From positions 1 through 52,866 of the forward strand of contig JBDNJO010000034.1 in assembly GCA_041687715.1 (NCBI GenBank): DNA of 52,866 nt, written 5' to 3'. The notes under the pieces are model-generated. The model saw only the letters and a program-made list of their open reading frames with translations, was not told the origin of the DNA and did not search any database. The stretch is from Candidatus Nanopelagicales bacterium. Lineage in GTDB: Bacteria; Actinomycetota; Actinomycetes; S36-B12; UBA5976. The position numbers and the translations under genes were made by a program. Every line of letters begins with the position of its first letter. Position 1 is the first letter of the stretch. Of this stretch, positions 7,850-28,376 are shown piece by piece.

Positions 7850-7851
7850 CG

Positions 7852-10351: not shown

Positions 10352-10412
10352 CAATTTCCGTTGCTGTAGGTTCGCACCAAACTTGCCCACCATGCAATTA
10401 CGAGAACGTTAG

Positions 10413-11207
10413 TTAGTTAGCCACATCTCTACGCTTGAACAGAATCGCAGCTACTAATGCCGAGATGCCAACATAAATTGCAAGCAATGTTGCGGACCGG
10501 TCGTAACTAATCGAATCCGTACCTCCGCGAGTTAACGAATCGATTAATTGCCCTGGTAACCACTTTGCGCTCGCGCTAAGTACACCAGACAAAATGTTGT
10601 CCAAGATTAGGAACCAGATCACACCTAGCGCAATGGAGCTAATTGGTGAACGTAAAAGAATTCCTAGAATCATGCCAATGGTTCCATAGATGATTACTGC
10701 AATTGAGACATTGACGAGAGTCTCAGTTATTGCCTGCGTGCCTTCCGCCGATGACCATGCAGTGGTATTGACTCCAGCCCAATCTGCAAGGCCATAGGAA
10801 ACCCCGATGCTAGTAATTGCTGAAGCTGCAACTATTAGTAAGCCAAAGATTGACATGGAAATGTACTTACCGGCAAGAATTTTCATTCGACTTGGCTGGC
10901 GTACTAGCAGGTTGCGTAATGTGCCGTAGGTATATTCTTGAGCCATCTGCGCAGCAAAAATACAAAGCGCAATAATTCCCAGCAGCACGGGAACTTGCTG
11001 AAAGCTAACTACTACACCGTTGGCCAGAGAAATTGATTCAACGGTTGGCGCTACCGCACCTGGTCGGCCACCGCCTTGTGGACTTTTCACTTCGCTAAAG
11101 ATTAGGTAAGTGAATAGAACGGAGAAAAATAACGTAGCTAGAAGTGTGCCTAACGTTAATGTTGGACGGCGCAATTTTCTAAACTCAGCTCGAATGACAT
11201 TAATCAT
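10413..11207 (-). CDS. ABC-2 type exporter permease
   Basis: IRAEFRKL N-terminus, EYTYGTLRNLLVRQPSR..ILAGK, C-terminal FKRRDV. Confidence 0.88.
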   Translation of the reverse strand: MINVIRAEFRKLRRPTLTLGTLLATLFFSVLFTYLIFSEVKSPQGGGRPGAVAPTVESISLANGVVVSFQQVPVLLGIIALCIFAAQMAQEYTYGTLRNLLVRQPSRMKILAGKYISMSIFGLLIVAASAITSIGVSYGLADWAGVNTTAWSSAEGTQAITETLVNVSIAVIIYGTIGMILGILLRSPISSIALGVIWFLILDNILSGVLSASAKWLPGQLIDSLTRGGTDSISYDRSATLLAIYVGISALVAAILFKRRDVAN

Positions 11208-12109: not shown

Positions 12110-12267
12110 AAAGTTCCTTGCTTATTAGAGGAAGTAAATTGTCACTGGTTTCATTCTAACTTTACAAAATTTCTAAGACATCCAACTAGGTAGGATTGAC
12201 TTTAAAGTAGCACTTCAATCACACTGTGAATTAAATGAGTCTGGCAAAATTAAGATAGTGTTATTCA

Positions 12268-13360: not shown

Positions 13361-14342
<982 letters not shown>

Positions 14343-14502: not shown

Positions 14503-17445
14503 ATGGATCAACGTTTAGCGTTCGAGGCAGCCAAGAAATTCTTTGGGATCACTGGCGAATTAGTAGAACTAGCTGGGGAACGTAACCCAAACTATTTATT
14601 AACCACCGACACTGAACATTTCGTACTTAAAATTCAAAATGCAGACGAAGTTGCCCAGATTGAAATTCAAGAATTAGCACTTGCTCAGCTGAGTGGGCTT
14701 TCAAGATTTTCGACACCCCGAACCATAACCAGTGCGAACGGTCAGTCACTTGTTTCTATCGGTGATGGGCAATTTGCAAGAATGTTGACGTGGATTCCTG
14801 GCGAACTTTGGTCAGCAAGTGAGACTTCTGAGTCACACAAAGTTGCTTTGGGCCAGCTGATCGCGACAGTCGATAACGAGCTTGCCAAAGTTGATGTTGC
14901 TGAACATGGAAACGTACTTGATCGGCCCTTTGGGTGGAACGCGCTACAGGTGCAGTCTCTTGTCGCCGATGTTGACTTAATTAAGGATCCAGAACTAAAA
15001 GTAAATGTGAAATTGATCTTGGACCGGGTAATTAATACCACGCTTGCCAAGGTCAAAGCGCTACCCAACCAACTAATTCACAACGATGCTAATGACAACA
15101 ACGTTGTGGTTCGGGATGGATCTGTCGTCGGCTTAATCGATTTCGGTGATCTGATTTATGCTCCGCGGATTTGTGGTCTGGCTGTTGGTTGCGCTTATCA
15201 ACTCGATGCGTGCGATCCGGTAGCCAGTATCTACTCAATCGTTCGCGGCTACCACGAAGTTTCGCCATTAACTCCGGCGGAACTGGAAGTATTATTTGAT
15301 TTAGTTTGTCTTCGAGTTGCAACTAGCGTTGTTATGGCGCATCGCCAACTGGCAGCGGATCCTGACAATGAATACTTAGCGGTTTCGCAAGATTTGTTCG
15401 AGAAATTACTTCCTGCATTAACTGCTTCTTCTGATCGCTTAGCGCACTATCGTTTGCGTAACGCGTGTGGCTATGAGGCACATCCAGATAGTCGCCATGT
15501 TCGCCAGTGGCTAACCACAACCAGTGATCAAATTGCTGATGTTGTTATGCCGCCATTTGCCCAAGCTAAGAAGATTTGGCTGGACTGGTCGGGCGAGAAC
15601 AAAAACATTGCTCGTTCTTGGGATGCCATCAAGGCGGAGATGGACGCAGCTGGCGCTGATGTTGCAATTGGTCATTACTGCGAGGATCGCAATGTTTATG
15701 AATCAGATTTCTTCGTTGATGAGGGCAAGGAATCTCGCACTGTTCATTTAGCAGTTGACCTATTTGCGCCAGCTGGAACACCCGTGTATGCAGCATTGGC
15801 TGGAACCGTCTTCCTATTCCACGACAACACAGCTCATCTCGATAACGGCCCAATGATTGTCCTAGAGCATAAAACAGATGCTGGCGTTAAGTTTCACACT
15901 CTCTACGCGCACCTTTCGCGTGAATCCCTCGTTCCGCTTGAAGTTGGGCAGGCAATTAAAGCGGGTCAACAAATTGCCAGTATGGGAACCGAAGAAGTTA
16001 ACGTTGGCTGGCCACCTCACACGCACTTTCAGATCATCTTGGATCTGTGCGACATGGCTCATGACATTTTTGGTGTGGCAGCAATTAGCGAACTCCCAGT
16101 TTGGCGAAGTATCTGCCCTAACCCGAACTTGATTCTGCGCATGCCCGAAGGCGTCGATGTGCATGCCCACCTAAAGACCGAAACCATCGCCGCTGAACGC
16201 GAAGTAGTAATGTCTCGGGCGTTAAGCCTTAATTTCCAGAAACACCTTGAAATCGTTCGAGGTGAAGGTGCTTATCTGTATGACAGAGCTGGCGGAAAAT
16301 ATTTAGATCTAGTTAACAATGTTGCTCATCTTGGACACAGTCATCCCCGAGTTGTTCAAGCCGCACATAAACAAATGTTGACGTTGAACACTAATACTCG
16401 TTACTGGAACCAAAGCGCTATTGAATACGCGCGCGCACTTGGAAACACACTCCCAGATCCATTAAACGTGGTCTTCTTCGTTAATAGCGGTAGTGAAGCA
16501 AATGATTTAGCGCTTCGATTAGCGCAGGCACATACCAAAGCCAAGGGCATGATGGTTTTAGAGCATGCATATCACGGACACATCACCAGCATTATTGAGA
16601 TTAGCCCCTACAAATTCAATGGCCGAGGCGGAGATGGGCGACCAGATCATGTCCGGATCGTTCCCATCCCTGATGCATATAAAGGTATCCATCGTGGCGA
16701 AGGAGCTGGCGCTAAATATGTCACGGAATTCAAGCGTGAACTGGAAACTTTAGCGCAACCACTATCCGCGTTCATTTCCGAATCAATCGTTAGTACTGGC
16801 GGTCAAGTGCCACTGGCACCTGGATTTTTAAAGCAAGCATTTGAATTGACGCGGGCAGCCGGTGGCGTATGTATTGCTGATGAAGTTCAAATTGGCATGG
16901 CTCGAGTTGGCACAAGTTTCTGGGGATTTGAAATGCACGATGTAATTCCTGACATCGTAACTATGGGAAAGCCAATTGGAAGTGGTCATCCCCTAGCTGC
17001 TGTTGTTACTACTCCCGAAATTGCTCATTCATTTATGACGGGCATGGAGTACTTTAATACTTTTGGTGGCAATCCAGTCTCAGCTGTAATCGGCCAAACT
17101 GTGCTTGATGTAATAGTTGATGAATCCTTACAGCGCAATGCACTAGACACTGGTAACTACCTAATGACTGGTGTTCGCGAACTAGGTAAATCATTGGAAT
17201 ACATCGGCGATGTTCGAGGTAGCGGATTGTTTATTGGCGTTGAACTCGTTACTGACCGAAGCACGCAAACTCCAGGTACCAAAATCACAAAAGACTTGAT
17301 TGAATTTGCTCGTGAAAATGGTGTCTTCTTATCAAGTGATGGTCCAGCAGATAACGTGTTAAAAATTAAGCCACCAATGATCATTGGCAAAAACGAAGTC
17401 GATATATTTCTTGATGTCTTAGAGTGCGGCCTTAAATCAATTTAA
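14503..17445 (+). CDS. Three-domain protein: APH/hydroxylysine-kinase-like phosphotransferase + M23-like domain + class III aminotransferase (phospho-lyase-like)
   Basis: Kinase HNDANDNN and IDFGD; M23-like HLAVDLFAPAGTPV, LYAHL, PHTHFQ; PLP domain YLDLVNNVAHLGH, NSGSEAND, ADEVQ, TMGKPIG, YFNTFGGNP. Confidence 0.88.
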   Translation: MDQRLAFEAAKKFFGITGELVELAGERNPNYLLTTDTEHFVLKIQNADEVAQIEIQELALAQLSGLSRFSTPRTITSANGQSLVSIGDGQFARMLTWIPGELWSASETSESHKVALGQLIATVDNELAKVDVAEHGNVLDRPFGWNALQVQSLVADVDLIKDPELKVNVKLILDRVINTTLAKVKALPNQLIHNDANDNNVVVRDGSVVGLIDFGDLIYAPRICGLAVGCAYQLDACDPVASIYSIVRGYHEVSPLTPAELEVLFDLVCLRVATSVVMAHRQLAADPDNEYLAVSQDLFEKLLPALTASSDRLAHYRLRNACGYEAHPDSRHVRQWLTTTSDQIADVVMPPFAQAKKIWLDWSGENKNIARSWDAIKAEMDAAGADVAIGHYCEDRNVYESDFFVDEGKESRTVHLAVDLFAPAGTPVYAALAGTVFLFHDNTAHLDNGPMIVLEHKTDAGVKFHTLYAHLSRESLVPLEVGQAIKAGQQIASMGTEEVNVGWPPHTHFQIILDLCDMAHDIFGVAAISELPVWRSICPNPNLILRMPEGVDVHAHLKTETIAAEREVVMSRALSLNFQKHLEIVRGEGAYLYDRAGGKYLDLVNNVAHLGHSHPRVVQAAHKQMLTLNTNTRYWNQSAIEYARALGNTLPDPLNVVFFVNSGSEANDLALRLAQAHTKAKGMMVLEHAYHGHITSIIEISPYKFNGRGGDGRPDHVRIVPIPDAYKGIHRGEGAGAKYVTEFKRELETLAQPLSAFISESIVSTGGQVPLAPGFLKQAFELTRAAGGVCIADEVQIGMARVGTSFWGFEMHDVIPDIVTMGKPIGSGHPLAAVVTTPEIAHSFMTGMEYFNTFGGNPVSAVIGQTVLDVIVDESLQRNALDTGNYLMTGVRELGKSLEYIGDVRGSGLFIGVELVTDRSTQTPGTKITKDLIEFARENGVFLSSDGPADNVLKIKPPMIIGKNEVDIFLDVLECGLKSI

Positions 17446-18099: not shown

Positions 18100-18351
18100 A
18101 TGTCAGAAGAAACTGCAACGGCTGCCGAGGCAATCAAATCAATTTGGCAAGGAAATCCCGCCACCATGGCTGAGCTCGATGAAGAGTGCAACCCAAATAA
18201 GGTATGTCGCAACATGAAGGACGTAACTTACGAAGGTTTTGGCGAAGAGGGCATGGATGTTGCCAGCGCCTGGAAAGCCAAGTTGGCTCGCGAAGGCAAG
18301 CTTGCCACTGGCGGCTCAATTGGCGACCTAATTCTGGGTCAACAAAACTAA
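18100..18351 (+). CDS. Small hypothetical protein (83 aa), first gene of the coxDE operon
   Basis: GGAGG RBS before ATG 18100; 24 nt upstream of coxD; acidic, contains C-x5-C. Confidence 0.7.
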   Translation: MSEETATAAEAIKSIWQGNPATMAELDEECNPNKVCRNMKDVTYEGFGEEGMDVASAWKAKLAREGKLATGGSIGDLILGQQN

Positions 18352-18375
18352 CAAATCGGAGAACTCGGATTTCCA

Positions 18376-19263
18376 ATGAGTGACGCTCGCCCATTTGCAG
18401 ACTTAACTGTTGAAAAGTTAACCACTGACCTTCGCGAACTTGGCTACATAGCTGACCGTGGTCTTGCTACCTCCATTTTAATTTCACTAAAACTTGGCAA
18501 ACCTCTGTTACTTGAAGGTGAGGTTGGCGTCGGTAAAACTGAACTCGCAAAAACACTTGCAGTTTTGTTCCAGCGCGAGTTGATTCGCTTACAATGCTAC
18601 GAAGGCATTGACACTAATCACGCACTTTACGAATGGGATTATGCCCGCCAGATGCTTCACATTCGCTCGCTGACCAGCGCCGAGCTAACCGGCAATTCTG
18701 ACGAGCAACTGTTTAGTACTAAATTCCTACTCGAGCGCCCATTACTTAAAGCAGTTCGAGCTGGGGCAGGTTGCGTACTACTTATTGATGAAGTGGATCG
18801 CGCTGATGATGAGTTCGAAGCTTTCTTACTTGAGTTGTTGTCCGATTTTCAAGTTACGATTCCTGAAATTGGAACAATTGCTGCAGTAACCCGCCCGATT
18901 GTGATTTTGACTTCCAATCGAACTCGCGAATTGCATGACGCTCTAAAGCGTCGTTGCCTGTATACCTGGATTGGCTTCCCAACTGCTGATCGGGAAATTG
19001 AAATTGTCCGCTCTCGGGTGCCTGGAATTAGCGAGCGCTTAGCGACTCAGGTCGTTGGCGCAGTAAACCAACTTCGCGATATGGAACTTGAAAAAGTACC
19101 GGGCGTTGCCGAAACTATTGACTGGGTTGAGTCCCTAGATGCAATTGGTGCTAATGACCTGACGGAAGCGAGCGCTGCCGACACAATTGGCGCAGTGATT
19201 AAAGATCGCGATGATCTTGATTTCACTCTGAAGAACTTAAATGACATCGTCCCTAGCTCCTGA
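18376..19263 (+). CDS. coxD: MoxR-type AAA+ ATPase, CODH maturation
   Basis: LEGEVGVGKTEL, RLQCYEGID, LYEWDY, LLIDEVDRAD.EFEAFLLE, TSNRTRELHDALKRRC; cox context. Confidence 0.88.
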   Translation: MSDARPFADLTVEKLTTDLRELGYIADRGLATSILISLKLGKPLLLEGEVGVGKTELAKTLAVLFQRELIRLQCYEGIDTNHALYEWDYARQMLHIRSLTSAELTGNSDEQLFSTKFLLERPLLKAVRAGAGCVLLIDEVDRADDEFEAFLLELLSDFQVTIPEIGTIAAVTRPIVILTSNRTRELHDALKRRCLYTWIGFPTADREIEIVRSRVPGISERLATQVVGAVNQLRDMELEKVPGVAETIDWVESLDAIGANDLTEASAADTIGAVIKDRDDLDFTLKNLNDIVPSS

Positions 19264-20389
19264 CCTAACAGGATTTGACGAACTCTTTATTGAGTTTGCC
19301 CATGACTTACGAGAACATGGCATGGTCATCGGTTCAGATGACGTCATAACTTTCCTTGCTGGCATTGCAGTTCTTGATGCAACTGATGTTATGGATGTTT
19401 ATTGGAGTGGGCGAACTACTCTGGTTCGCAAAAAAGACAATGTTCCCCTTTATAACAGGCGCTTTCAATCATTTTTTTTAACATTAGAAGCTGGCGAAAC
19501 AGATGAGCGCAAACTAAAACTGAAATCTTCAGCAAATGCTGGCGCGACTTTAGAAGTGCCAAATGTCGAACAGGGTTTGCCTGGCGATGTGCAAGAAGAT
19601 GAAAGTCGTATGGGTTACATGGCCTCAGCAGCCGATGTTGCTCGCCATAAAGCATTTGCTGACTGCACTCCTGAGGAACTAAATCGGTTTCGAAAATTGA
19701 TTTCAATGCTTCGGGTATCCCCTCCGATGCGACGGACCTTTCGCACGCAATCCAGCCCTAAAGGCAAGATCCTTGATATGCGGCGAATGGCGCGCGAAAC
19801 CATGCGTTCTCTTGGTGAACCAAACGAATTAGTTTTCATTAAGCGCAAAGAAAAACTGCGCCCCATTGTTTTCATCCTCGATGTCTCTGGATCCATGGCT
19901 GATTATTCTCGAAACTTATTACAACTTGCTTACTCAGCTAGGCGCGCAAATACTAAAGTTGAAGTTTTTTGTTTCGGATCTCGGCTCACTCGAATCACAA
20001 AATCAATCGATAAGCGCACACCTGATGAAGCAATGCGACTTGCCGGAGAAGCAGTACTGGACTGGGATGGTGGCACCCGTATCGGCGACTCACTTACAAC
20101 CTTTGTTAAAGAATCTCGCAGAGCGCGGCTGGGTCGCGGCGCGATTATCGTCATCTGTTCCGATGGTTTAGATCAAGGCCAACCTCAAGTTCTGGATAAG
20201 TCCATGCAGACTCTGGCTCGCCTTGCCTATCGGGTAGTTTGGGTAAATCCTCACAAGGGTGACGCCGAAGACTATGTACCAAATACCATTGGAATGATGG
20301 TGGCAGATCCGTACATCGACAAGGTTTACTCCGGGCACAACTACAAGAGCATCGAAGAATTTGCTCGAGAACTATCAAGAATGGGATAA
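19241..20389 (+). CDS. coxE: VWA-domain CODH accessory protein
   Basis: MIDAS DVSGSM, VEVFCFGSRLTRIT, WDGGTRIG, SDGLD, WVNP; overlaps coxD. Confidence 0.88.
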   Translation: MTSSLAPDLTGFDELFIEFAHDLREHGMVIGSDDVITFLAGIAVLDATDVMDVYWSGRTTLVRKKDNVPLYNRRFQSFFLTLEAGETDERKLKLKSSANAGATLEVPNVEQGLPGDVQEDESRMGYMASAADVARHKAFADCTPEELNRFRKLISMLRVSPPMRRTFRTQSSPKGKILDMRRMARETMRSLGEPNELVFIKRKEKLRPIVFILDVSGSMADYSRNLLQLAYSARRANTKVEVFCFGSRLTRITKSIDKRTPDEAMRLAGEAVLDWDGGTRIGDSLTTFVKESRRARLGRGAIIVICSDGLDQGQPQVLDKSMQTLARLAYRVVWVNPHKGDAEDYVPNTIGMMVADPYIDKVYSGHNYKSIEEFARELSRMG

Positions 20390-20395
20390 CAGATT

Positions 20396-20692
20396 ATGAA
20401 ATTTAGCGTTTCTTTAGTCGCTCACGGCGACCGAGATATGACACTGGATGAGATTGTTGAGCTTGCCGATGCAGTTGCACCACTTAATGGCATCGCATCA
20501 GGCATGGGAACAACTTCGTACGGTGCTCAAATTATGGTGGAGGCCGAATCTGCTGTGGACGCAGTAAATGAAGGTCGCAAACTCTTTGAGGCAGCAATTG
20601 CAAAGACTTCCCTACCTAAATGGGAGATCACTGACGCCGACACTATGAGCGAAGAAGAAGACTTCTTCAACATTGATTTAGGAGTCGAATGA
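20396..20692 (+). CDS. Hypothetical protein (98 aa, acidic)
   Basis: Tightly packed after coxE; ATGA overlap with the next gene. Confidence 0.7.
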   Translation: MKFSVSLVAHGDRDMTLDEIVELADAVAPLNGIASGMGTTSYGAQIMVEAESAVDAVNEGRKLFEAAIAKTSLPKWEITDADTMSEEEDFFNIDLGVE

Positions 20693-21129
20693 TTCGTCTC
20701 GGTACGTTAGCGGGCTACCCTTTCGAAGGCCCACGGGTACTTTCGGGATGGACTGCGCCAAAAGTTCCAGCAGTTTATGCCATCCTTAGCCGCAACGATG
20801 CCGAAGGAAAGCCGCAAGATTACTCGGTAATCTTTGTTGGACATTCTGAGGACTTAACAACGGTTGGTTTTCCGTTTAAGCATCGTCGTTCGCCAGCCTG
20901 GATTGCTCGCGCTGGCGATAAATACAACCTGCATGTGGCTTACTACGAAATCCCTGGTGGTTTGCAGTCACATCGTCAACTGGTCTGCGAGGAGTTATTG
21001 GCCATTTACACACCGAGCTGTAACGAAGAAAAGTTTGATAAGACCTGGAAGGACGAATGGATCGGTGAATACTCAACTCCTGTAACTGATCCACTGACAA
21101 CTAATCGGGATCCAAACTCTTCTAACTAA
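20689..21129 (+). CDS. Hypothetical protein, degenerate GIY-YIG-like fold
   Basis: PAVYAI...VIFVGHSEDL and EELLAIYTPSCN resemble the GIY/YIG and E..L...Y.P..N motifs; AGGAG RBS. Confidence 0.6.
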   Translation: MIRLGTLAGYPFEGPRVLSGWTAPKVPAVYAILSRNDAEGKPQDYSVIFVGHSEDLTTVGFPFKHRRSPAWIARAGDKYNLHVAYYEIPGGLQSHRQLVCEELLAIYTPSCNEEKFDKTWKDEWIGEYSTPVTDPLTTNRDPNSSN

Positions 21130-21160
21130 TCAAGGCATTTGTTTCATAGCTATTTGAAGC

Positions 21161-21197
21161 ATAAAAATAGCCCCACTTGCGTGGGGCTCTTTTTTAT
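21161..21197. terminator. Bidirectional intrinsic terminator between the convergent cox operons
   Basis: ATAAAAAT-AGCCCCAC-TTGC-GTGGGGCT-CTTTTTTAT: 8-bp GC-rich stem with A and T tracts on either side. Confidence 0.9.
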
Positions 21198-21204
21198 TTT
21201 GAAA

Positions 21205-21567
21205 TTAATCTAGATCTATGCCAACACCATGCATTTGACGAGAGCGACGAACTCCCATTGCTGGCTTCGCACCCTCTCGTTCCGTTCCTTTTGGCTCTGG
21301 AACATAAGTAGCACCGGTAACGATGCCCTCAGCCATTGTGTAAAGCAGCGGCAAAGCGCCGGCAACAATTCCACCAGTTGAGTTGATCTGGGTTAGGCCG
21401 CCGTGAATAACTTCAGCGTCCTTCTTGATTTCCCAAACTAGATCAGCAGCTTCTTCCAAGGTGCCAGCAACTTTTGTAAGTTGACGGCCAACGATGAATA
21501 AGTAAACAGCTAGACCTGCAATAAGTGCTACTACGTCAATAACTGACCACAATGCTAATGAGCTCAT
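21205..21567 (-). CDS. Small single-TM + coiled-coil protein 5 of the cox operon (120 aa)
   Basis: N-terminal hydrophobic helix, then heptad-like LTKVAGTLEEAADLVWEIKKDAEVI; ATGA overlap with the upstream gene. Confidence 0.8.
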   Translation of the reverse strand: MSSLALWSVIDVVALIAGLAVYLFIVGRQLTKVAGTLEEAADLVWEIKKDAEVIHGGLTQINSTGGIVAGALPLLYTMAEGIVTGATYVPEPKGTEREGAKPAMGVRRSRQMHGVGIDLD

Positions 21568-21839
21568 GAGCGCACCTTCTCTAGGACGCGGCCTAAGAAC
21601 AAGTGATGCTCTAGGCCTTCATTTAATACAGCGTCCACGCCAGCAGCAGTTAAGCCGATAAGCGCAGTGTTTGAAGTGTTGTCCTTGGCTGCTGCCAAAG
21701 TTGCTTTGATGGCGGCAACGCGCTTATCAATAGTGCGAACCAAAAGCACCAAGATTGTTAGAAGCGCAGCTACTGCAACGACTACAACAATGCCAAGGAT
21801 GTTTGCAACGGTCCACAATGTTTCTACTGTGCTATCCAT
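21564..21839 (-). CDS. Small single-TM + coiled-coil protein 4 of the cox operon (91 aa)
   Basis: TM helix, then VRTIDKRVAAIKATLAAAKDNTS; GGAGG RBS. Confidence 0.8.
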   Translation of the reverse strand: MDSTVETLWTVANILGIVVVVAVAALLTILVLLVRTIDKRVAAIKATLAAAKDNTSNTALIGLTAAGVDAVLNEGLEHHLFLGRVLEKVRS

Positions 21840-21841
21840 TT

Positions 21842-22102
21842 TCAGCCTCCAAGCTTAGTGCGACCACGATTTAGACCAGCAACGATGTTTGTTGCTGATT
21901 CAATTGTGATGCGTAGTTTTTTAAGACCAGCAGTGTTTGTTTCTGCGGCCTGTAATCCTTTATTGATTCGCTTTGCCTGGCCGCCGATGCGTCCTGCCAA
22001 AAGCAGAATTGGCACAACTAATGCGACGACAACTAGTACAACGACTAGGCCGATTACATATCCAAGTAGCCAACCTGTGTGGGTACCGAAGAAATCACTC
22101 AT
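21842..22102 (-). CDS. Small single-TM + coiled-coil protein 3 of the cox operon (86 aa)
   Basis: TM helix, then AGRIGGQAKRINKGLQAAETNTAGL; AGGGG RBS. Confidence 0.8.
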   Translation of the reverse strand: MSDFFGTHTGWLLGYVIGLVVVLVVVALVVPILLLAGRIGGQAKRINKGLQAAETNTAGLKKLRITIESATNIVAGLNRGRTKLGG

Positions 22103-22110
22103 AGCTACCC

Positions 22111-22338
22111 CTAAATCGATTCTGCGAAGTTACGCACTGGAGCCAAGCTGGCATTTACTGAATCAACTGTGCTTGTCACAGTTGATGTTTGCGCAACGAT
22201 TACTGCAACTCCGCCATCAAGTGCGTCCAGTGTCTTAACTACTGCACGCAAGTGAAGAATAACGCGGATTAAGCCAAGTGCGGCTGCGGCGATGATGATC
22301 GTAAAGATCACTAATGAGACTACAAATACGGTTTCCAT
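22111..22338 (-). CDS. Small single-TM + coiled-coil protein 2 of the cox operon (75 aa)
   Basis: TM helix, then LRAVVKTLDALDGGVAVIVAQTSTV; AAGGGG RBS. Confidence 0.8.
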   Translation of the reverse strand: METVFVVSLVIFTIIIAAAALGLIRVILHLRAVVKTLDALDGGVAVIVAQTSTVTSTVDSVNASLAPVRNFAESI

Positions 22339-22348
22339 TGTTATCCCC

Positions 22349-22603
22349 TTATCCCAATAACTTTGCTACTGAACCGGCGTAACGTACTGCGCCGTTGGCA
22401 ACATCTTTGATGGTTGCATCTGTGGTTTCCAGCAGCGCAGGTGTGGTGCCAAGTTCGCCAATTAGAGCAACGCCCCCAGCTAATGCATCATCTGCTGCGC
22501 CGCGGATACGTTCCAATGCGCTAAGCACCATGTTTAGTAACCAAACCAAAACTGGAATGATCACAACAACAAGTGCAATGTTAAAAATTGCCCAAATACT
22601 CAT
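22349..22603 (-). CDS. Small single-TM + coiled-coil protein 1 of the cox operon (84 aa)
   Basis: TM helix, then LERIRGAADDALAGGVALIGEL; AAGGGG RBS; 12 nt after coxG. Confidence 0.8.
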   Translation of the reverse strand: MSIWAIFNIALVVVIIPVLVWLLNMVLSALERIRGAADDALAGGVALIGELGTTPALLETTDATIKDVANGAVRYAGSVAKLLG

Positions 22604-22615
22604 GTCTGCCCCCTT

Positions 22616-23203
22616 CTACCGTCGTGCCAAAGGCTTGTAAGGCATAAAGAAGCGAGCGAGTACTCGACCCGTTGCCCTCTTGAAAGCGTTCACACCAATC
22701 GCTAAACCACTTGCTGCTTTTGCGCCACCAATTGCATTTGGATCCAAGCCCTTAGCGATTGCGTCCATTCGGGCTTCCATGTTTTTAGTCGCTGTGTTTA
22801 CTAACACTGCAGTAACGTCAGCTACCAGGCCACGACCATAGTTTGCAGCCGCGCCAGAGATTACAAGATCCATTGAAAGATCTACTTTGGTGCCACCAGC
22901 AATTTGATTTAGTGAAGCAGTTAGTAGGACTGAAGCTGCGCCTCGGCCTTTTTTATCTGCACCTGATGCGTCAAGAACAAGAATCTTTTTTACGTTGTCC
23001 CGGCTCTTAACTTCTGCCACACCATCAAACTCAAGTTTTACCGGTCCGGCGGAAACAATAACTCCACCTTCGTACCTGTCTTTGGTAATTTCCTTGGACA
23101 GATTAGCTCCTGGAATTGAAGCTGCTACTTGTGGAATGTCATCAAAGAACTTCCACACAGCGTCAATTGGCTGCTTTACTTCAAAGGATTGCGAGATCAG
23201 CAT
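22616..23203 (-). CDS. coxG: CoxG (SRPBCC/START fold)
   Basis: FEVKQPIDAVWKFFDDIPQVAASIPGA, AGPVKLEF.G, GADKKGRGAA, G.AANYGRGLV.DV; directly after coxL; AAGGAGG RBS. Confidence 0.88.
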   Translation of the reverse strand: MLISQSFEVKQPIDAVWKFFDDIPQVAASIPGANLSKEITKDRYEGGVIVSAGPVKLEFDGVAEVKSRDNVKKILVLDASGADKKGRGAASVLLTASLNQIAGGTKVDLSMDLVISGAAANYGRGLVADVTAVLVNTATKNMEARMDAIAKGLDPNAIGGAKAASGLAIGVNAFKRATGRVLARFFMPYKPLARR

Positions 23204-23246
23204 TATGCCTCCTTAAGGCCCGAGTTTGGACTAACAGAATTCACTA

Positions 23247-25628
23247 TTAGTCGCCCATTTTTACTGGCGGCATTCCGCTGATGTCTTTACCGGTCATAAG
23301 AGCTTCGTATACCCGGTTAGGCATCATTGGCATGTCGATGTTACGAACACCGGTGTGACCAACGGCGTCAATTACAGCGTTCACGAATGCAGCAGGTCCG
23401 GCAACGGTTGCACATTCGCCAACACCCTTGGCACCAATTGGGTGGTGTGGGCAAGGTGTTACAACTTCATGCAACTCAAAGCCTGGAGTTTCCCAAGCTG
23501 TTGGTAGCAAGTAGTCCATGTAGTTTGCGCCGATGCAGTTACCTTCTTCATCGTAAGTTTGGTACTGCATGCTGGCCATTGCGTATGCCTCGGTGAGTCC
23601 ACCCATGATTTGTCCTTCGACAACCATTGGGTTAATGCGGACACCACAGTCATCAACTGCAACAACCTTTAGAACATCCCAAACGCCTGTTTCAGCATCT
23701 ACTTCAACCTTTACGAAGTAGGCAGCGAACGGCCAAGTTAAGTTCGGTGGATCGTAGTAAGCGTTGTTCTCTAAGCCGGGCTCCATGCCATCTGGCATGT
23801 TGCTGTAGGCCGCCATTGCGCAATCCTGAATCGTTACGCCACGCTCTTTGTTTGAACGAACATAGAACCGACCCAACTCCCACTCAATATCTTCTTCAGA
23901 TACCTCAAGTAAGTGAGCTGCAATCTTGCGAGCCTTGGCACGAATCTTACGCGAAACCATCGCAACTGCAGCGCCAGCAACTGGAGTACTACGTGATGCG
24001 TAGGTTCCCATGCCAAACGGCGCAGTGTCGGTATCGCCTTCTTCAACAGTTACGTCATCAGCTGGAATACCTAGCTCATGCGCAACAATTTGTGCCCAAG
24101 TGGTCTGGTGACCCTGACCCTGGTTCATGGCGCCGGTGCGCAAGATTGCCTTACCGGACATGTGAACGCGAAGTTCAGCTGAGTCAAACATCTTGATACC
24201 CAAGATGTCGTACTCACGGCTATTTCCTGCGCCAAGTGGCTCAGTCATAGTCGAGATACCAATACCGATTAACTTGCCACGCTTGCGCGCTTCAAGCTGC
24301 TCTGCTTTGTAGCCGTCATATCCAATTGCCTTCAAACCAATGTCAAGGCACTTTCCGTACTGACCCGAGTCGGTTAAGAAACCGAAGGCAGTGCGGTAAG
24401 GGAACATGTCATCCTGCACCAAGTTCATGCGACGGAATTCTGCTTGATCCATTCCTAGATCGTTAGCTGCTGCGTGAACCATGCGCTCCTGGAAGAACAT
24501 CGCCTCAGTTACGCGGAAGGAACAGCGGTAAGCAACGCCACCTGGAGCCTTGTTGGTGTAATAACCAACGGACTCAAGGTGGGCAGTTGGAATGTCGTAG
24601 CAAGCAAATGTTGAGTGCATCAGACCAATTTTGAACTTACTTGGCTGGGCATCTGCATAGAAAGCGCCGTGATCAGAGATCGTCTTCATGCGCATTCCAA
24701 GCATCTTGCCGTCCTTACGAAGCGCCAATTCACCTTGCAAGTAAACATCGCGGCCAAAGCCAGTTGAAATCAAGTTGCCAGTCTTATCTTCAATCCACTT
24801 AACCGGGCGTTCAGTCAAAATCGAAGCAAGAATTGAAACTACGTAACCTGGGTAGATCGGCACCTTGTTACCAAAGCCACCACCAAGGTCAGGTGAAACA
24901 ATACGGATCATGTGTTCTGGAAGTTCCGCAACCATGGCTACAGCTGCGCGCACGATGTGCGGAGCCTGCGAAGTCATGTAAACCGTTAACTTGCCTGTTG
25001 CGCGATCGTAATCGGCAATCGAACCACAAGTTTCCATTGGAGATGGATGAGAACGTGGGTAGTGAAGTTCCATCTTTGAAATAACATCAGCTTCAGCGAA
25101 TGCCTTATCTGTTGCAGCCTTGTCGCCGATTTCCCAATCGAAAACCTTGTTGCCTGGCTGATTCTCTTTGTCGTCACGAATGATTACAGCATCTGCTGAC
25201 ATTGCCTGCATTGGATTTACGATTGCTGGAAGTTGTTCGTATTCAACAACGATTGCTTCACATGCATCTTTTGCAATGTAAGGATCATCAGCAATAACAG
25301 CAGCAACTTCTTGTCCCTGGAAACGCACTTTGTCAGTTGCAAGCACTGCCTGGGTGTCGTAGGAAAGAGTTGGCATCCATGCCAAGTTACGAGCTGCCAT
25401 CATTTCGCCAGTTAAAACTAAGCGAACACCAGGAATGTCGTATGCCTTGCTGACATCAATTGACTTGATGCGAGCGTGAGCTACTGGGCTACGAAGGATT
25501 TCCATGTGCAGCATGCCAGGTAAAACGATGTCATCAACATAGTTACCCTTGCCACGAATGAAACGGTTGTCTTCTACGCGGCGGCGACTTGCGCCAAGTC
25601 CGCCAATTTTAATTTCGTCTAATGCCAT
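23247..25628 (-). CDS. coxL: Aerobic CO dehydrogenase large subunit, form I
   Basis: Form I active-site loop GGVAYRCSFRVTEA; EDNRFIRGKGNYVDDI, GGGFGNKVPIYPGYV, GAKGVGE. Confidence 0.95.
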   Translation of the reverse strand: MALDEIKIGGLGASRRRVEDNRFIRGKGNYVDDIVLPGMLHMEILRSPVAHARIKSIDVSKAYDIPGVRLVLTGEMMAARNLAWMPTLSYDTQAVLATDKVRFQGQEVAAVIADDPYIAKDACEAIVVEYEQLPAIVNPMQAMSADAVIIRDDKENQPGNKVFDWEIGDKAATDKAFAEADVISKMELHYPRSHPSPMETCGSIADYDRATGKLTVYMTSQAPHIVRAAVAMVAELPEHMIRIVSPDLGGGFGNKVPIYPGYVVSILASILTERPVKWIEDKTGNLISTGFGRDVYLQGELALRKDGKMLGMRMKTISDHGAFYADAQPSKFKIGLMHSTFACYDIPTAHLESVGYYTNKAPGGVAYRCSFRVTEAMFFQERMVHAAANDLGMDQAEFRRMNLVQDDMFPYRTAFGFLTDSGQYGKCLDIGLKAIGYDGYKAEQLEARKRGKLIGIGISTMTEPLGAGNSREYDILGIKMFDSAELRVHMSGKAILRTGAMNQGQGHQTTWAQIVAHELGIPADDVTVEEGDTDTAPFGMGTYASRSTPVAGAAVAMVSRKIRAKARKIAAHLLEVSEEDIEWELGRFYVRSNKERGVTIQDCAMAAYSNMPDGMEPGLENNAYYDPPNLTWPFAAYFVKVEVDAETGVWDVLKVVAVDDCGVRINPMVVEGQIMGGLTEAYAMASMQYQTYDEEGNCIGANYMDYLLPTAWETPGFELHEVVTPCPHHPIGAKGVGECATVAGPAAFVNAVIDAVGHTGVRNIDMPMMPNRVYEALMTGKDISGMPPVKMGD

Positions 25629-25643
25629 GTCTAAAACTCCAAC

Positions 25644-26171
25644 CTAGTTTGATTCTGCGCGCATTTTTTTTGCGGCCCAGAGAACTGACTTCACGATATT
25701 TTGGTAACCGGTGCAGCGACATAAATTGCCGGAAAGTGCCCAGCGAATTTCATCTTCTGTTGGGTCGTTGTTCTGATCTAGCAGTGCCTTTGCAGCCAGC
25801 ATCATGCCTGGTGTGCAAAAACCACAATGTAAACCGTGCTCTTCTTTGAAGCCTTCTTGAATCGGGTGAAGTTCACTTGCAGTTGCAAGACCTTCAACTG
25901 TTTCCAAGCTGTGACCATCTGCCTGAACTGCCAGCATGGTGCAACTCTTAATTGGGCGACCGTCAAAGAGAATGACACAGGCACCACAGTTACTGCTGTC
26001 GCAGCCGGAGTGAGTGCCGGTCAGCTTTAGGCCTTGGCGTAATAAGTGTGCAAGAAGTAAGCGAGGCTCAACATCTACAGTGCGATCATCGCCGTTGACC
26101 TTGATGGTCACACGGCGAGTTGCAACGCCAGGGGCCGGTGCTGCTTGTACTTCGTCATAAAGACTGGTCAT
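25644..26171 (-). CDS. coxS: CO dehydrogenase small (2x[2Fe-2S]) subunit
   Basis: [10 protein letters not shown]...[22 protein letters not shown]. Confidence 0.93.
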
Positions 26172-26173
26172 TT

Positions 26174-27049
26174 TCAGGCTGCTTTCTGTGATGTGTTTGC
26201 AAGTCCAGTAAGGATTCGGGAAACAAATACTTTAACGATCTGACGCTTGTAGTCCGATGATCCGCGATGATCAGTGCGAGGTTCAGCTGTCGCTGCAACT
26301 GCCGCTGCAACTTCGGCAATTAACTCAGGTGTGATCTTTTTGCCAACAAGTGACTGCGCAGCTTCTGATGCATCGATAGTGCGTCCGCCAACACTGGCTA
26401 GCGCAATACCGGCGCCAACAACAGTTTCGCCATTCATTTCTAGTGAAACTGCAACCGATGCGGTTGCGAAATCGCCAACACGGCGCTCAAGCTTTAGGTA
26501 GCTTCCTACGCGAACACCCTTAGGCGCTGGAATAACTGCCTCAATAGCAATTTCGTTAAACGCAAGTGTGTTTTGGAACGGCCCAATAACAAAATCTTTC
26601 ATTGAGATTTCGCGAGTTCCCTTTGGACCTTGCGCAACAATGTGACCGCCCATTGCAGTCATGGTTGCTGACCAGTCTCCTTGTGGATCTGCGTGGCAAA
26701 CCGAACCAACAAAAGTTCCGCGGGTGCGCACGATTGGATCTGAAACAAGCGGCGCAGCTGCAGCGATTGTTGGTGCATGCTCTTCCATGATTGCGCAGTT
26801 TTCAAGTTCTTCATGTCGGCAAAGTGCGCCGATGTGAATGCTGCCATCTGGATCAACTCGGTGGTAGTTGAGTCCCTCAATGCCGTTGATATCAACTAAC
26901 ATCTCCGGCGCAGAGAAACGAAGCTTGATCATCGGGATCAGGCTTTGACCACCGGATAGAACTTTGGCTTCGCCCGCATGAGCATCAAGAAGGGCGATTG
27001 CCTCTTCAATAGTTTTTGGGGATTCATATCCAAATCTGGAGGGATACAT
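26174..27049 (-). CDS. coxM: CO dehydrogenase medium (FAD) subunit
   Basis: [52 protein letters not shown]; M-S-L gene order. Confidence 0.93.
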
Positions 27050-27106
27050 TTATTTCCTTTCGGTGGCTGTGTATTTTAAGTTAAATCGATTAATTACTTG
27101 CGCGAG

Positions 27107-27482: not shown

Positions 27483-28376
27483 TCAGTTTTGCTTTAAAAC
27501 CTGAATGATTTCAGCAATTACCGAAACTGCGATTTCCGCTGGAGTGCTTGCCGAAATCTTTAGGCCAGCTGGTCCATGTACGCGGGATAAATCAGTTACT
27601 TCCTGGTAAGCCAGCCAGTCAGCGCGATCTTGCTGCATTTTGGCTGAGCCCAGTGCTCCGATGTAGCCAGCATTGCCTTCAATTGCAGCGCCCAAGTTTC
27701 GGCTGGAAATTTCTACTTCGTGCCCCATGATTACTGCAGCATCAAGTGGCGACAGCGAAGCTAAAAGGCCAATTGCTTGGTCGTTTCGCATAACTACTGA
27801 GACATTCCACCCAAGTGTTTTACCGAGAGCGGCAATAGCTTCAGCTTTTGGACCTTGGCCGGCAACAACGAGTCTGGTGACTGGGAATAGTACTGAGATA
27901 ACTCGATCTGGGTGGACTTGAAAATCTGTAACACCTCTGGCAAATAATTCAGCAGTTTCAGGGTCTGCTGTTGAAATTGAGCTTTCGTCGAATACATCAA
28001 CTCGAGTTACCTCATCACTGCTCAGGTGGGCAACTACTGCAATCGGCACCCGATCGATCATGGCTGGCCAAGTATCGGGGTCGAAGTTATCCGCTGGGAC
28101 TATTAAGAACTGGGCGTTTGTTCCAACAGGGATACCAGAGATGGTGGATTCGAATTCATTAACAGGTACATCCAGCAATCGGCCAGTTGGCAGTTTGCGA
28201 TTTGAGTAATCTGACATCACACCGTCGAAGGCGCCCTCAAAGATTTTTCCGATGCGTCCCCCGCCTGGAGTCAGCGCTAAGGCATGAACTCCTAAATTGG
28301 GCGAAACTAACCAAGCAATTTCAGCTCTAGTTTTGGAACGAACACAAGCATTTACACTGAGCGCAATGTCATACAT
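27483..28376 (-). CDS. XdhC/CoxF/CoxI family Mo-cofactor insertion protein
   Basis: RLVVAGQG, AVIMGHE, AGYIGALGS, RVHGPAGLKISASTPAEIAVSVIAEI. Confidence 0.85.
   Translation of the reverse strand: MYDIALSVNACVRSKTRAEIAWLVSPNLGVHALALTPGGGRIGKIFEGAFDGVMSDYSNRKLPTGRLLDVPVNEFESTISGIPVGTNAQFLIVPADNFDPDTWPAMIDRVPIAVVAHLSSDEVTRVDVFDESSISTADPETAELFARGVTDFQVHPDRVISVLFPVTRLVVAGQGPKAEAIAALGKTLGWNVSVVMRNDQAIGLLASLSPLDAAVIMGHEVEISSRNLGAAIEGNAGYIGALGSAKMQQDRADWLAYQEVTDLSRVHGPAGLKISASTPAEIAVSVIAEIIQVLKQN

What the first reader, a model, noticed from the sequence alone, without database searches (positions are those of the whole stretch)
21205..22603. Five tandem TM + coiled-coil microproteins after coxG: candidate hetero-oligomeric membrane stalk for CO dehydrogenase
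Seen: five consecutive genes (84, 75, 86, 91, 120 aa), each with an RBS, gaps of at most 12 nt or overlaps, lying between coxG and the operon terminator. All share one plan: short N-terminus (Trp in four), one hydrophobic helix of about 20-25 aa, then about 45-55 aa of heptad-patterned helix rich in Ala/Gly/Val/Leu. A recurring (L/V)xx(I/V)xxxxxx(I/L/A)...(N/Q)T register suggests divergent paralogs. CoxG here ends in a basic amphipathic segment (FKRATGRVLARFFMPYKPLARR) rather than a clear TM anchor. Established from M. smegmatis: CoxG carries menaquinone between membrane and CODH, and hydrogenase Huc uses a coiled-coil HucM stalk to deliver quinone. Inference: these proteins assemble into a membrane-anchored helical bundle that docks CODH/CoxG or channels quinone. 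I know of no description of such a module in cox operons. This is the best candidate for an undescribed system in the window.
Basis: partly seen in the sequence, partly recalled or inferred. Interest (0 to 1): 0.92.

Follow-up and report, generated by a model that had tools for sequence, protein, structure and literature searches.

The report
Hydrogenase-type membrane stalk genes beside CODH
Five tiny membrane-anchored helical proteins encoded after the carbon monoxide dehydrogenase genes belong to a family so far reported only beside certain hydrogenases, which suggests a shared plug-in membrane dock for enzymes that harvest trace gases.

Summary
Five minus-strand genes (84, 75, 86, 91 and 120 aa) follow coxM-coxS-coxL-coxG and end at a terminator. 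All five are under purifying selection. Each has one TM helix with an N-out/C-in charge pattern, followed by a heptad-patterned cytoplasmic helix.

The genes are not orphans. Their five sequence classes recur in other Actinomycetota, in three settings:
- next to a second kind of form I CODH operon;
- flanking a [NiFe]-hydrogenase cluster that matches the published "group 1m" description;
- in one locus, as five short genes between the hydrogenase small- and large-subunit genes, the published "group 1l, HylTM1-5" layout.

The array is therefore a CODH-linked version of a hydrogenase-associated membrane module that others have modelled as a scaffold. Within the genus, the same 13 of 24 genomes hold both the module and coxL, and 11 hold neither.

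My best reading (about 0.6) is a heteromeric membrane stalk that docks CODH, and perhaps CoxG, at the membrane. The link to anchorless CoxG is only partial. My literature searches found no paper tying this module to CODH. I classify it as a new variant of a known kind.

The parts
22349..22603 (-). m1, 84 aa. Single-pass TM plus helical tail. This class occupies the fourth slot of the hydrogenase-interposed set in L138.
   Evidence: ORF. TM core 9-27 with N-out/C-in charges. Heptad signal reached by 1/2000 shuffles. pN/pS 0.04-0.10. Found in 67 of 67 reachable loci. Class recognised in hydrogenase and CODH loci.
22111..22338 (-). m2, 75 aa. Single-pass TM plus helical tail. Paralogue of m5.
   Evidence: Heptad 3/2000. 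pN/pS 0.09-0.20. 71 of 71 reachable loci. m2-m5 profile match at 98% probability.
21842..22102 (-). m3, 86 aa. Single-pass TM plus helical tail. Paralogue of m4 and m1.
   Evidence: Heptad 6/2000. 73 of 73 reachable loci. Near-gapless alignment (one single-residue insertion, in the L206 row) with hydrogenase-linked and CODH-type-2 members (A4). m3-m4 profile match at 98.4%.
21564..21839 (-). m4, 91 aa. Single-pass TM plus helical tail. Conserved NT layer, and an EGLEHHLFLGRVL end in this cassette type.
   Evidence: Heptad is weak at 97/2000. 76 of 76 reachable loci.
21205..21567 (-). m5, 120 aa. Single-pass TM plus a helix with an invariant GALPLLY segment. It also has a C-terminal tail of about 35 aa (PAMGxRRSR) that the other contexts lack.
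   Evidence: 34 invariant columns in 38 sequences. Lengths are 116-122 aa here, against 78-105 aa (one 185-aa ORF whose start was probably mis-trimmed) in hydrogenase-linked and CODH-type-2 loci. Family size.
22616..23203 (-). coxG. SRPBCC quinone-carrier homologue with a conserved amphipathic C-terminal tail and no TM helix.
   Evidence: PF06240, E 1.6e-12. Tail hydropathy 0.91. Tail residues invariant in 38 orthologues (A6).
23247..25628 (-). coxL, large subunit of form I Mo-Cu CO dehydrogenase.
   Evidence: TIGR02416, 1103 bits against a cut-off of 991. AYRCSFR loop.
25644..26171 (-). coxS, 2Fe-2S subunit. Has a 19-aa N-terminal extension specific to this cassette type.
   Evidence: PF01799 and PF00111. 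Extension seen.
26174..27049 (-). coxM, FAD subunit.
   Evidence: PF00941 and PF03450.
21169..21188 (.). Bidirectional terminator-like hairpin that closes the cox-m1..m5 operon and the convergent coxD-coxE-p98-p146 operon.
18376..21129 (+). Convergent accessory operon: coxD-like MoxR AAA+ (18376-19263), coxE-like VWA (19241-20389), and two conserved ORFs with no family, p98 (20396-20692) and p146 (20689-21129).
   Evidence: Pfam; no family for p98 or p146. Present in 62/62, 68/68, 77/77 and 79/79 reachable loci respectively.
27483..28376 (-). XdhC-family maturation factor upstream of coxM.
   Evidence: PF13478. NF045664, E 5.5e-17, below its cut-off.

Best explanation
m1-m5 are five co-translated, single-pass (N-out, C-in) membrane proteins with amphipathic, heptad-patterned cytoplasmic helices. 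They fall into two paralogue groups, {m1,m3,m4} and {m2,m5}. They belong to the same five-member family that accompanies group 1l-like and group 1m-like [NiFe]-hydrogenases in other Actinomycetota; in print the group 1l set is called HylTM1-5.

Shown here:
- homology of the five classes across enzyme contexts;
- strict co-inheritance with form I coxMSL-coxG;
- strong purifying selection;
- the predicted topology.

Inferred:
- One copy of each protein assembles into a hetero-oligomeric helical stalk rooted in the membrane.
- The cytoplasmic end of the stalk holds the soluble CODH, together with or next to the quinone carrier CoxG, at the membrane surface. Electrons from CO then reach menaquinone over a short path.
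- The enzyme-specific part of the dock is supplied by tails. These are the extra C-terminal tail of m5 in this cassette, a long C-terminal extension of m2 in the second CODH arrangement, and (from the literature) the C-terminal extension of the hydrogenase small subunit in Hyl.
For: Conservation in close relatives. In the best 80 of at least 513 related loci, every gene of coxMSL-coxG-m1..m5 was found wherever the contig reached: m4 76/76, m3 73/73, m2 71/71, m1 67/67, coxG 59/59, coxL 47/47.

Co-inheritance. In the genus, the same 13 of 24 genomes hold m5 and coxL, and 11 hold neither. The 11 include genomes that are 95%, 97% and 90% complete.

Constraint. The microproteins are as conserved as enzyme subunits: median identity 68-78%, against 61% for CoxG and 70% for CoxM. 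pN/pS is 0.04-0.37.

The same five classes elsewhere.
- As m3-m4-m5-m1-m2 directly upstream of a second clade of AYxCSFR coxMSL, in L136, L137, L139, L144 and L206.
- Split as m3-m4-m5 and m1-m2 around a [NiFe]-hydrogenase cluster with NifU, TPR, DUF1059, a CooC-like gene and a protease, in L128, L133, L134 and L140. This matches the published group 1m cluster, including its 'two small proteins (82-92 aa)' with one TM helix (PMC9561532).
- As five short genes between the hydrogenase small- and large-subunit genes in L138. This is the published group 1l / HylTM1-5 layout.

Published model. [quoted passage not shown]

No hydrogenase here. No [NiFe]-hydrogenase scored over the Pfam cut-off in this genome or in four near-complete congeners. 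In this genus CODH is therefore the only one of the enzymes seen beside the module elsewhere that is present.

Topology and heptad signal.

CODH-specific tails. m5 is 116-122 aa here, against 78-105 aa elsewhere (apart from one ORF with an uncertain start). m2 is 201-254 aa in type-2 CODH loci, against 75-104 aa elsewhere.

CoxG in type-2 loci. In the three type-2 module loci where a complete CoxG was found, its sequence ends with the SRPBCC domain, with no linker or anchor (143 and 146 aa in two; the third ORF is 191 aa with an uncertain start).

Expression. Contigs from RNA libraries of three studies cover m1-m4 of close relatives. One 1978-nt contig spans m2-m1-coxG-coxL.
Against: - No structural or binding test was possible (closed). 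Oligomerisation and docking therefore rest on homology, co-inheritance and a published prediction for relatives, which is itself not experimental.
- Direct homology to the Hymenobacter roseosalivarius HylTM1-5 reference proteins was not tested. The link runs through one actinobacterial locus (L138) that has the same layout.
- Most form I CODH operons do without the module. I found it next to coxL in 9 of the 83 genomes with coxL over the cut-off, in a sample of 401 genomes of the phylum. It was lacking within about 9 kb of coxL in 19 of 20 further loci.
- An amphipathic CoxG tail like the window's occurs in five module-less loci, in genomes with no m3-class gene. The module is therefore not simply the substitute for a missing CoxG anchor.
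- No residue pattern suggests a cofactor or a quinone site.
- Three module loci (L126, L127, L142) lie next to neither enzyme within the 14-20 kb stretches read.
- RNA-library contigs can contain DNA and cannot prove a single transcript.
Confidence: 0.6

Rival explanations
1. Quinone conduit rather than passive anchor. The five helices form a hydrophobic tube through which menaquinone leaves the bilayer and reaches the enzyme, or CoxG at its tip. This would be functionally like the HucM stalk of the Huc hydrogenase.
For: The cytoplasmic helices are rich in A/G/V/L/I/T (57-70%). [quoted passage not shown] CoxG, a quinone carrier in M. smegmatis (PMC12202499), is encoded immediately upstream. 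My recollection of HucM as a quinone-delivering stalk comes from the Nature 2023 paper, of which I saw only the search listing.
Against: No conserved aromatic or polar quinone-binding motif stands out across contexts. If the tube delivered quinone directly, the strict retention of coxG in the cassette (59/59) would need another explanation. No sequence comparison with HucM was made.
Confidence: 0.2
2. Assembly or targeting factors. The five proteins act transiently, for example as a membrane platform on which CODH or hydrogenase is matured or handed to the membrane, and are not part of the working enzyme.
For: In hydrogenase loci they sit among maturation genes: protease, NifU-like, CooC-like, HypE. 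In this window they converge on the coxD-coxE maturation operon.
Against: In the cox operon they are co-oriented and tightly spaced with the structural genes coxMSL-coxG, not with coxD or coxE. Five stoichiometrically retained paralogues with high conservation fit a structural complex better than a chaperone. The metal centres to be matured differ completely (Mo-Cu versus Ni-Fe), whereas membrane docking is a need both enzymes share.
Confidence: 0.1
3. A general membrane or stress module (DUF948/YoxC-like small coiled-coil membrane proteins) that is merely co-regulated with trace-gas enzymes during starvation, with no physical link to CODH.
For: Some relatives carry the automatic label 'uncharacterized protein YoxC'. 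Sub-threshold DUF948 matches occur in long relatives (E 0.0017; 1 of 14 members at E 0.004). Three module loci lie away from both enzymes.
Against: No member reaches the DUF948 gathering score. Presence and absence match coxL exactly in 24 of 24 congeners. Adjacency to one of three enzyme operons held in 18 of the 21 genomes whose context I read. The tails vary with the enzyme type.
Confidence: 0.07

Closest known systems
[quoted passage not shown]
   Same: There are five consecutive short genes, each with one TM helix. In the actinobacterial locus L138, which has the published layout (hydS, five short genes, hydL), the five ORFs score best as classes m3, m4, m5, m1 and m2/m5 in that order. 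The role proposed in print, scaffolding a cytosolic trace-gas enzyme to the membrane near the quinone pool, is the one inferred here.
   Different: Here the partner is a Mo-Cu CO dehydrogenase and the genome has no hydrogenase. The gene order is rotated (m1-m2-m3-m4-m5 after coxG). m5 carries an extra conserved tail. Homology to the Hymenobacter reference proteins themselves was not tested.
The 'two small proteins (82-92 aa)' with a single TM helix in group 1m [NiFe]-hydrogenase clusters (Ray et al. 2022, PMC9561532)
   Same: In L128, L133, L134 and L140 the cluster content matches that description: adjacent small and large subunit genes, protease, NifU-like, CooC-like, TPR, DUF1059. The pair beside DUF1059 belongs to classes m1 and m2.
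   Different: These loci also hold an m3-m4-m5 trio on the other side of the hydrogenase genes, so all five classes are present. The passages I saw in the paper mention only two. Its supplement could not be read.
HucM stalk of the Huc hydrogenase of Mycobacterium smegmatis (Grinter et al. 2023, PMC10017518; search listing seen, content recalled)
   Same: Conceptually similar: a membrane-associated helical stalk that links a soluble atmospheric-gas oxidising enzyme to menaquinone.
   Different: As recalled, HucM is a single protein that forms a homo-oligomeric stalk, not five single-pass paralogues. No sequence relationship was tested or is claimed.
C-terminal transmembrane anchor of CoxG in M. 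smegmatis (Kropp et al. 2025, PMC12202499)
   Same: It addresses the same problem, keeping the quinone carrier and CODH at the membrane. Seven of the 12 CoxGs found in module-less loci have such a linker plus TM helix.
   Different: The window's CoxG has a conserved amphipathic tail and no TM helix. The complete CoxGs in type-2 module loci have no tail at all. The anchor function may have moved to separate proteins, but five module-less genomes also have tail-type CoxG.

Membership tests
HylTM1-5 type small TM proteins (group 1l [NiFe]-hydrogenase clusters) | Five consecutive short ORFs, each with one predicted TM helix | tested here: met
   Five ORFs of 75-120 aa, each with one hydrophobic core of mean Kyte-Doolittle 2.55-3.45.
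HylTM1-5 type small TM proteins (group 1l [NiFe]-hydrogenase clusters) | Sequence homology to the five ORFs interposed between hydrogenase small- and large-subunit genes | tested here: met
   Against L138 (hydS 7398-8711, five ORFs, hydL 10258-12144), HMMs built from window-type orthologues hit four of the five ORFs at E 5e-4 to 1e-8. Leave-one-out broad HMMs give best classes m3 (54.5 bits), m4 (76.9), m5 (53.9), m1 (54.2) and m5/m2 (48.4/43.6). That L138 is 'group 1l' rests on its gene layout, not on a hydrogenase phylogeny.
HylTM1-5 type small TM proteins (group 1l [NiFe]-hydrogenase clusters) | Homology to the reference proteins of Hymenobacter roseosalivarius | not testable with these tools
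   The reference sequences were not obtainable. A 401-genome sample of another phylum, reached through G441, held no locus with interposed short genes.
HylTM1-5 type small TM proteins (group 1l [NiFe]-hydrogenase clusters) | Located between hylS and hylL | tested here: not met
   Here the genes follow coxG in a cox operon. No [NiFe]-hydrogenase scored over the cut-off in G000 or four congeners.
HylTM1-5 type small TM proteins (group 1l [NiFe]-hydrogenase clusters) | Assembly into a tube-like membrane scaffold (published AlphaFold3 model) | not testable with these tools
Small single-TM pair of group 1m [NiFe]-hydrogenase clusters | Homology of m1 and m2 to the pair next to DUF1059/NifU in clusters with the published gene content | tested here: met
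In L134, m1 class scores E 1e-8 and m2 class E 1e-8. L128, L133 and L140 behave likewise.
DUF948 / YoxC (PF06103) | Score at or above the Pfam gathering threshold | tested here: not met
   None of m1-m5 matches. The best matches among relatives are E 0.0017 (18.9 bits against 37.2) and 1 of 14 members at E 0.004.
HucM-type stalk | Sequence or fold similarity to HucM | not tested
Only a functional analogy is proposed.
Form I Mo-Cu CO dehydrogenase (neighbouring coxL) | TIGR02416 over its cut-off and the AYXCSFR active-site loop (motif recalled from the literature) | tested here: met
   1103.2 bits against a cut-off of 991.15. The loop reads AYRCSFR.
CoxG (PF06240) with C-terminal TM anchor | SRPBCC domain plus linker plus C-terminal TM helix, as in M. 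smegmatis | tested here: not met
   The domain is present (E 1.6e-12). The C-terminus has no TM helix: its 19-aa hydropathy maximum is 0.91, against 1.9-3.1 in TM-type CoxGs.

The most novel reading that the evidence does not exclude
The five-protein set is an enzyme-agnostic, exchangeable 'membrane dock and quinone access' module. It has moved between operons of unrelated soluble trace-gas oxidoreductases: Mo-Cu CODH at least once and perhaps twice, and two [NiFe]-hydrogenase lineages. Specificity is provided by short adaptor tails: the m5 tail in this cassette, the m2 extension in the second CODH type, and the small-subunit extension in Hyl. In abundant freshwater Actinomycetota it, rather than a CoxG anchor, would be the route by which CO-derived electrons enter the menaquinone pool, through a hydrophobic heteropentameric tube.
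Probability: 0.3. Interest if true: 0.8.

Novelty: new variant of a known kind. Interest (0 to 1): 0.62.

Why it matters
How soluble atmospheric-gas oxidising enzymes hand electrons to membrane quinone is only partly solved. Huc uses the HucM stalk, and mycobacterial CODH uses a membrane-tethered CoxG.

This window shows that a five-member family of tiny membrane proteins, known in print only as unexplained or modelled companions of group 1l/1m hydrogenases, is also a fixed part of form I CODH operons. It is found in Nanopelagicales-like and Ilumatobacteraceae-like freshwater bacteria, and in a second arrangement in other Actinomycetota.

A module shared by enzymes with unrelated catalytic subunits points to a common job at the membrane. 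It also gives three natural versions to compare, with enzyme-specific tails that are ready-made hypotheses for the docking contacts. In addition, gene-context surveys of CODH that look only for coxG miss a conserved component.

Tried and rejected
- Family libraries. Pfam and NCBIfam gave no family over its cut-off for m1-m5, p98, p146 or the long relatives. The sub-threshold hits (DUF2561, DUF6755, DUF4381, DUF948, pilin-like) look driven by the TM helix, and I set them aside.
- Paralogues in the genome. No further paralogue turned up among 15,575 ORFs of the genome.
- Protein atlas. It returned only unnamed Actinomycetota clusters.
- Reaching the Hymenobacter-type locus. I sampled 401 genomes of the phylum of G441, a genome reached through locus L024. 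39 held a hydrogenase match. The best (G816, 43% identity) has adjacent subunit genes and no m-like ORF at E<=10. The cross-phylum link therefore stays untested.
- Fusion to CoxG. I checked whether the long m2 proteins of type-2 CODH loci are fused to a CoxG/SRPBCC domain. They are not, and their extension matches nothing else in the sequences I held. The resemblance between the basic end of that extension (PRRRLP) and the RRSR of the m5 tail is a loose observation by eye, not a result.
- Anchor-replacement idea. I tested whether the module replaces the CoxG anchor. It is only partly supported.
- Module tree. A concatenated tree placed the two CODH-linked types apart (CODH type 2 with L138 at 83% support; the adjacent-subunit hydrogenase group at 78%). 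With proteins this short and no root, I do not claim two independent recruitments.
- Metatranscriptomes. m5 itself was not covered by any contig in the four runs laid. This says nothing either way.
- Supplements. Paper supplements were closed. Fig. S5 / Table S7 of the Antarctic preprint and Supplementary 17 of PMC9561532 may list these small proteins, and possibly CODH-linked ones. I could not see them.
- Literature searches that found no link between such proteins and CODH: plus passages of PMC13240472.
Full report
**What is in the window.**
- On the minus strand, coxM (26174-27049), coxS (25644-26171), coxL (23247-25628) and coxG (22616-23203) are followed by five short ORFs. These are m1 22349-22603 (84 aa), m2 22111-22338 (75), m3 21842-22102 (86), m4 21564-21839 (91) and m5 21205-21567 (120).
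- The spacing is 12, 10, 8 and 2 nt, then a 4-nt overlap. Each start is preceded by a purine-rich SD-like motif (my reading).
- A terminator-like hairpin at 21169-21188 closes this operon and also the convergent coxD-like / coxE-like / p98 / p146 operon.
- CoxL scores 1103 bits on TIGR02416 (cut-off 991) and carries AYRCSFR.
- CoxG matches PF06240.
- None of m1-m5 reaches any Pfam or NCBIfam threshold.

- Each protein has one strongly hydrophobic 19-aa core (mean hydropathy 2.55-3.45). No K/R precedes it and 2-4 K/R follow it. By the positive-inside rule this predicts N-out/C-in, with the helical tails in the cytoplasm where CODH sits.
- The tails have a hydrophobic moment that peaks at 102-105 degrees in four of the five. 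The observed value was reached by 1, 3, 6, 97 and 0 of 2000 shuffles for m1-m5, so the signal is weak for m4.
- pN/pS against orthologues is 0.04-0.37, with synonymous sites near saturation.
- The genome (1.39 Mb, 47.6% GC, 70% complete) holds no further paralogue.
- With class alignments that include distant members, profile-profile comparison gives two paralogue groups. {m1,m3,m4} scores 96-98% probability over about 85 or more columns. {m2,m5} scores 98% over 80 columns. There is a weaker m2-m3 link at 84%.

**Conservation with cox in close relatives.**
- The m5 family has 1539 relatives at E<=0.01 in the 90%-clustered collection, and 232 clusters at 50% identity at E<=0.001. It is a narrow family.
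The best 80 come from records titled Nanopelagicales, Planktophila, Ilumatobacteraceae, Acidimicrobiales and the like.
- In those 80, every cassette gene was found wherever the contig reached that far: m4 76/76, m3 73/73, m2 71/71, m1 67/67, coxG 59/59, coxL 47/47, p146 79/79, p98 77/77, coxE 68/68, coxD 62/62. All five m genes were in the same order in 69 of 69 loci.
- Median identity to the window is 68-78% for m1-m5. It is 61% for CoxG, 70% for CoxM and 88% for CoxL.
- In a draw of 24 congeners, the 13 genomes with m5 are exactly the 13 with a coxL match. The other 11 have neither, and they include genomes that are 95%, 97% and 90% complete. The cassette is therefore gained and lost as a unit.

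**The same five classes in other contexts.**
- A profile of m5 matched 27 of 401 genomes sampled across the phylum. Three of these are unpublished genomes that I did not analyse.
- I read 14-20 kb stretches around the matches in 18 of these genomes, on top of the window's own and two whose contig coordinates already place m5 beside coxL.
- HMMs built from the window-type orthologues recognise all five classes there.

Four genomes have the window-type cassette. One of them is a 5.6-Mb, 71% GC genome (L125).

Four genomes, plus a fifth found later (L206), have a second arrangement. It runs m3-m4-m5-m1-m2 directly upstream of coxMSL, where coxL is about 55% identical to the window's but also carries AYxCSFR.

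Ten genomes have the module beside [NiFe]-hydrogenase genes or their accessory genes.
- In L128, L133, L134 and L140, an m3-m4-m5 trio and an m1-m2 pair flank adjacent small and large subunit genes. With them are a protease, a NifU-like gene, a TPR protein, DUF1059, a CooC-like ATPase, HypE and a SIS protein (Pfam; maps).
- In L138, five short ORFs lie between the small (7398-8711) and large (10258-12144) subunit genes. Leave-one-out class HMMs assign them, in order, to m3, m4, m5, m1 and m5/m2.
- That layout is the one published for 'group 1l' hydrogenases, whose five interposed genes were named HylTM1-5 (bioRxiv 10.1101/2020.08.06.239558, passages seen).

The hydrogenase large subunit of L134 is closest, among solved structures, to the group 1h enzyme 5AA5 (E 1.3e-140). 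I label L138 and L134 as 1l-like and 1m-like from gene layout and content, not from a phylogeny.

Three loci (L126, L127, L142) show the module, or part of it, next to neither enzyme within the stretch read.

**What this means for the window.**
- The five genes are a CODH-linked version of a module known from hydrogenase clusters.
- This genome and four near-complete congeners have no [NiFe]-hydrogenase over the Pfam cut-off. Of the enzymes seen beside the module elsewhere, only CODH is present in these genomes.
- A module shared by enzymes with unrelated catalytic subunits and cofactors most simply serves what they have in common. Both are soluble, cytoplasmic, quinone-reducing enzymes that must work at the membrane.
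- No Cys/His pattern or other cofactor-like motif is conserved across contexts. The conserved positions are an N-terminal Trp, small residues in the TM helix, a basic patch after it, and an N/T-rich layer about 25-30 residues further on.
- I therefore favour a structural stalk or dock.

**Enzyme-specific tails.**
- Window-type m5 is 116-122 aa in 38 sequences. It has an invariant GALPLLY segment, which is shared with other contexts, followed by a tail of about 35 aa with PAMGxRRSR, which is not shared.
- In other contexts, m5-class proteins trim to 78-105 aa, apart from one 185-aa ORF whose start was probably mis-trimmed.
- In type-2 CODH loci it is instead m2 that is long, at 201-254 aa. Its conserved extension matches nothing else I hold.
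- In the Hyl model, the C-terminal extension of the small subunit lies beside the TM helices.
- I infer that these tails are the adaptors.
- The window-type CoxS also has a 19-aa N-terminal extension, and CoxL and CoxM have slightly longer C-termini than all other clades compared. I cannot say whether that is related.

**CoxG.**
- The window's CoxG has no TM helix, but its tail is highly conserved. G152, D154, P155, A164, S165, R180, R184, F185, P188 and Y189 are invariant in 38 orthologues.
- Among 19 module-less form I CODH loci, a CoxG was found in 12. Seven have a long linker plus a clear TM helix. Five have an amphipathic tail resembling the window's.
- Those five genomes have no m3-class gene anywhere.
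- In the three type-2 module loci where a complete CoxG was found, the sequence ends with the SRPBCC domain. Two are 143 and 146 aa; the third ORF is 191 aa with an uncertain start.
- All module-linked CoxGs therefore lack a TM anchor. Lacking one does not, however, require the module.

**How common it is.**
- In the phylum sample, 83 of 401 genomes have coxL over the curated cut-off. Five of those 83 are unpublished genomes counted only in this tally.
- The module lies next to coxL in nine genomes that I could verify.
- 19 of 20 further coxL loci have no module within about 9 kb.
- It is a minority solution, concentrated in particular lineages.

**Expression.**
- Contigs from four freshwater metatranscriptome runs, 90-95% identical to the window and so from relatives, were laid on 21100-27100.
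- Three runs from three studies cover parts of m1-m4.
- One 1978-nt contig spans 22241-24218, that is m2-m1-coxG-coxL.
- RNA libraries can contain DNA, and contigs cannot prove one transcript. This is a weak hint of co-expression.

**Evolution.** A concatenated tree of the five classes gives 100% support for each CODH-linked type. It places type 2 with L138 (83%), apart from type 1. The proteins are short and the tree is unrooted, so I only note that the module has changed enzyme partner at least twice.

**Limits.**
Oligomerisation, docking and any lumen are untested here.
- The Hymenobacter reference proteins could not be compared.
- Paper supplements were closed.
- Literature searches found no paper that links these proteins to CODH. 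The library does not hold all journals.

**Verdict.**
- What appears new is the attachment of this known, still uncharacterised module to form I CODH, in two arrangements with enzyme-specific tails.

Noticed in passing
window 20396-20692 (+) and 20689-21129 (+): Two ORFs (98 and 146 aa) with no Pfam or NCBIfam family follow coxE and overlap each other by 4 nt. They are present in 77/77 and 79/79 reachable loci of the cassette, and also in the 71% GC relative L125. They were not seen in type-2 CODH or hydrogenase loci. They may be further cassette-specific CODH accessory proteins.
   Followed up: partly
window 14503-17445 (+): A 980-aa protein combines a phosphotransferase (APH) domain, a peptidase M23 domain and a class-III aminotransferase domain. 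It is conserved next to the cassette in congeners. This is an unusual three-domain fusion.
   Followed up: no
loci L015-L094: The cassette occurs at 64-70% (m5) and 85-88% (CoxL) identity in records titled Nanopelagicales/Planktophila and in records titled Ilumatobacteraceae/Acidimicrobiales, which are two different classes. It also occurs on contigs of MAGs titled Flavobacterium, Bifidobacterium breve and Actinomyces. This suggests transfer between freshwater lineages, mis-binned contigs, or both.
   Followed up: no
P0267 (325 aa); L127:1202-1867 and 1877-2512; L129:16759-17436 and 18153-18875; L131:11735-12448 and 12460-13281: Longer relatives (211-325 aa) start with an m-like TM plus helix, then continue with repeated N/T-rich helical segments. 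One has a sub-threshold DUF948 match (E 0.0017). They sit near module copies, so the family may be part of a wider superfamily of membrane-anchored helical-repeat proteins.
   Followed up: partly
L129-L130 (G230) and L131-L132 (G433): These genomes carry two or more copies of the module classes around two hydrogenase gene sets, together with a MoxR/VWA (coxD/coxE-like) pair.
   Followed up: no
L126:9907-10807 (G292): An m3-m4-m5 trio has no m1-m2 nearby and lies away from coxL, which is on another contig. It sits between very large ORFs of 774, 813 and 1604 aa that I did not annotate.
   Followed up: no
window 25644-26171 (coxS), 23247-25628 (coxL), 26174-27049 (coxM): Cassette-type CoxS has a conserved 19-aa N-terminal extension. 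CoxL and CoxM end about 7-12 residues later than in all other CODH clades compared. These could be contact sites for the module, but this is untested.
   Followed up: partly
window 13578-14342 (-): A 254-aa ORF begins like the N-terminal amidotransferase part of a large glutamate synthase subunit (my reading of the translation, with no family search). It stops early, so it may be a broken or frameshifted gene or an assembly error.
   Followed up: no
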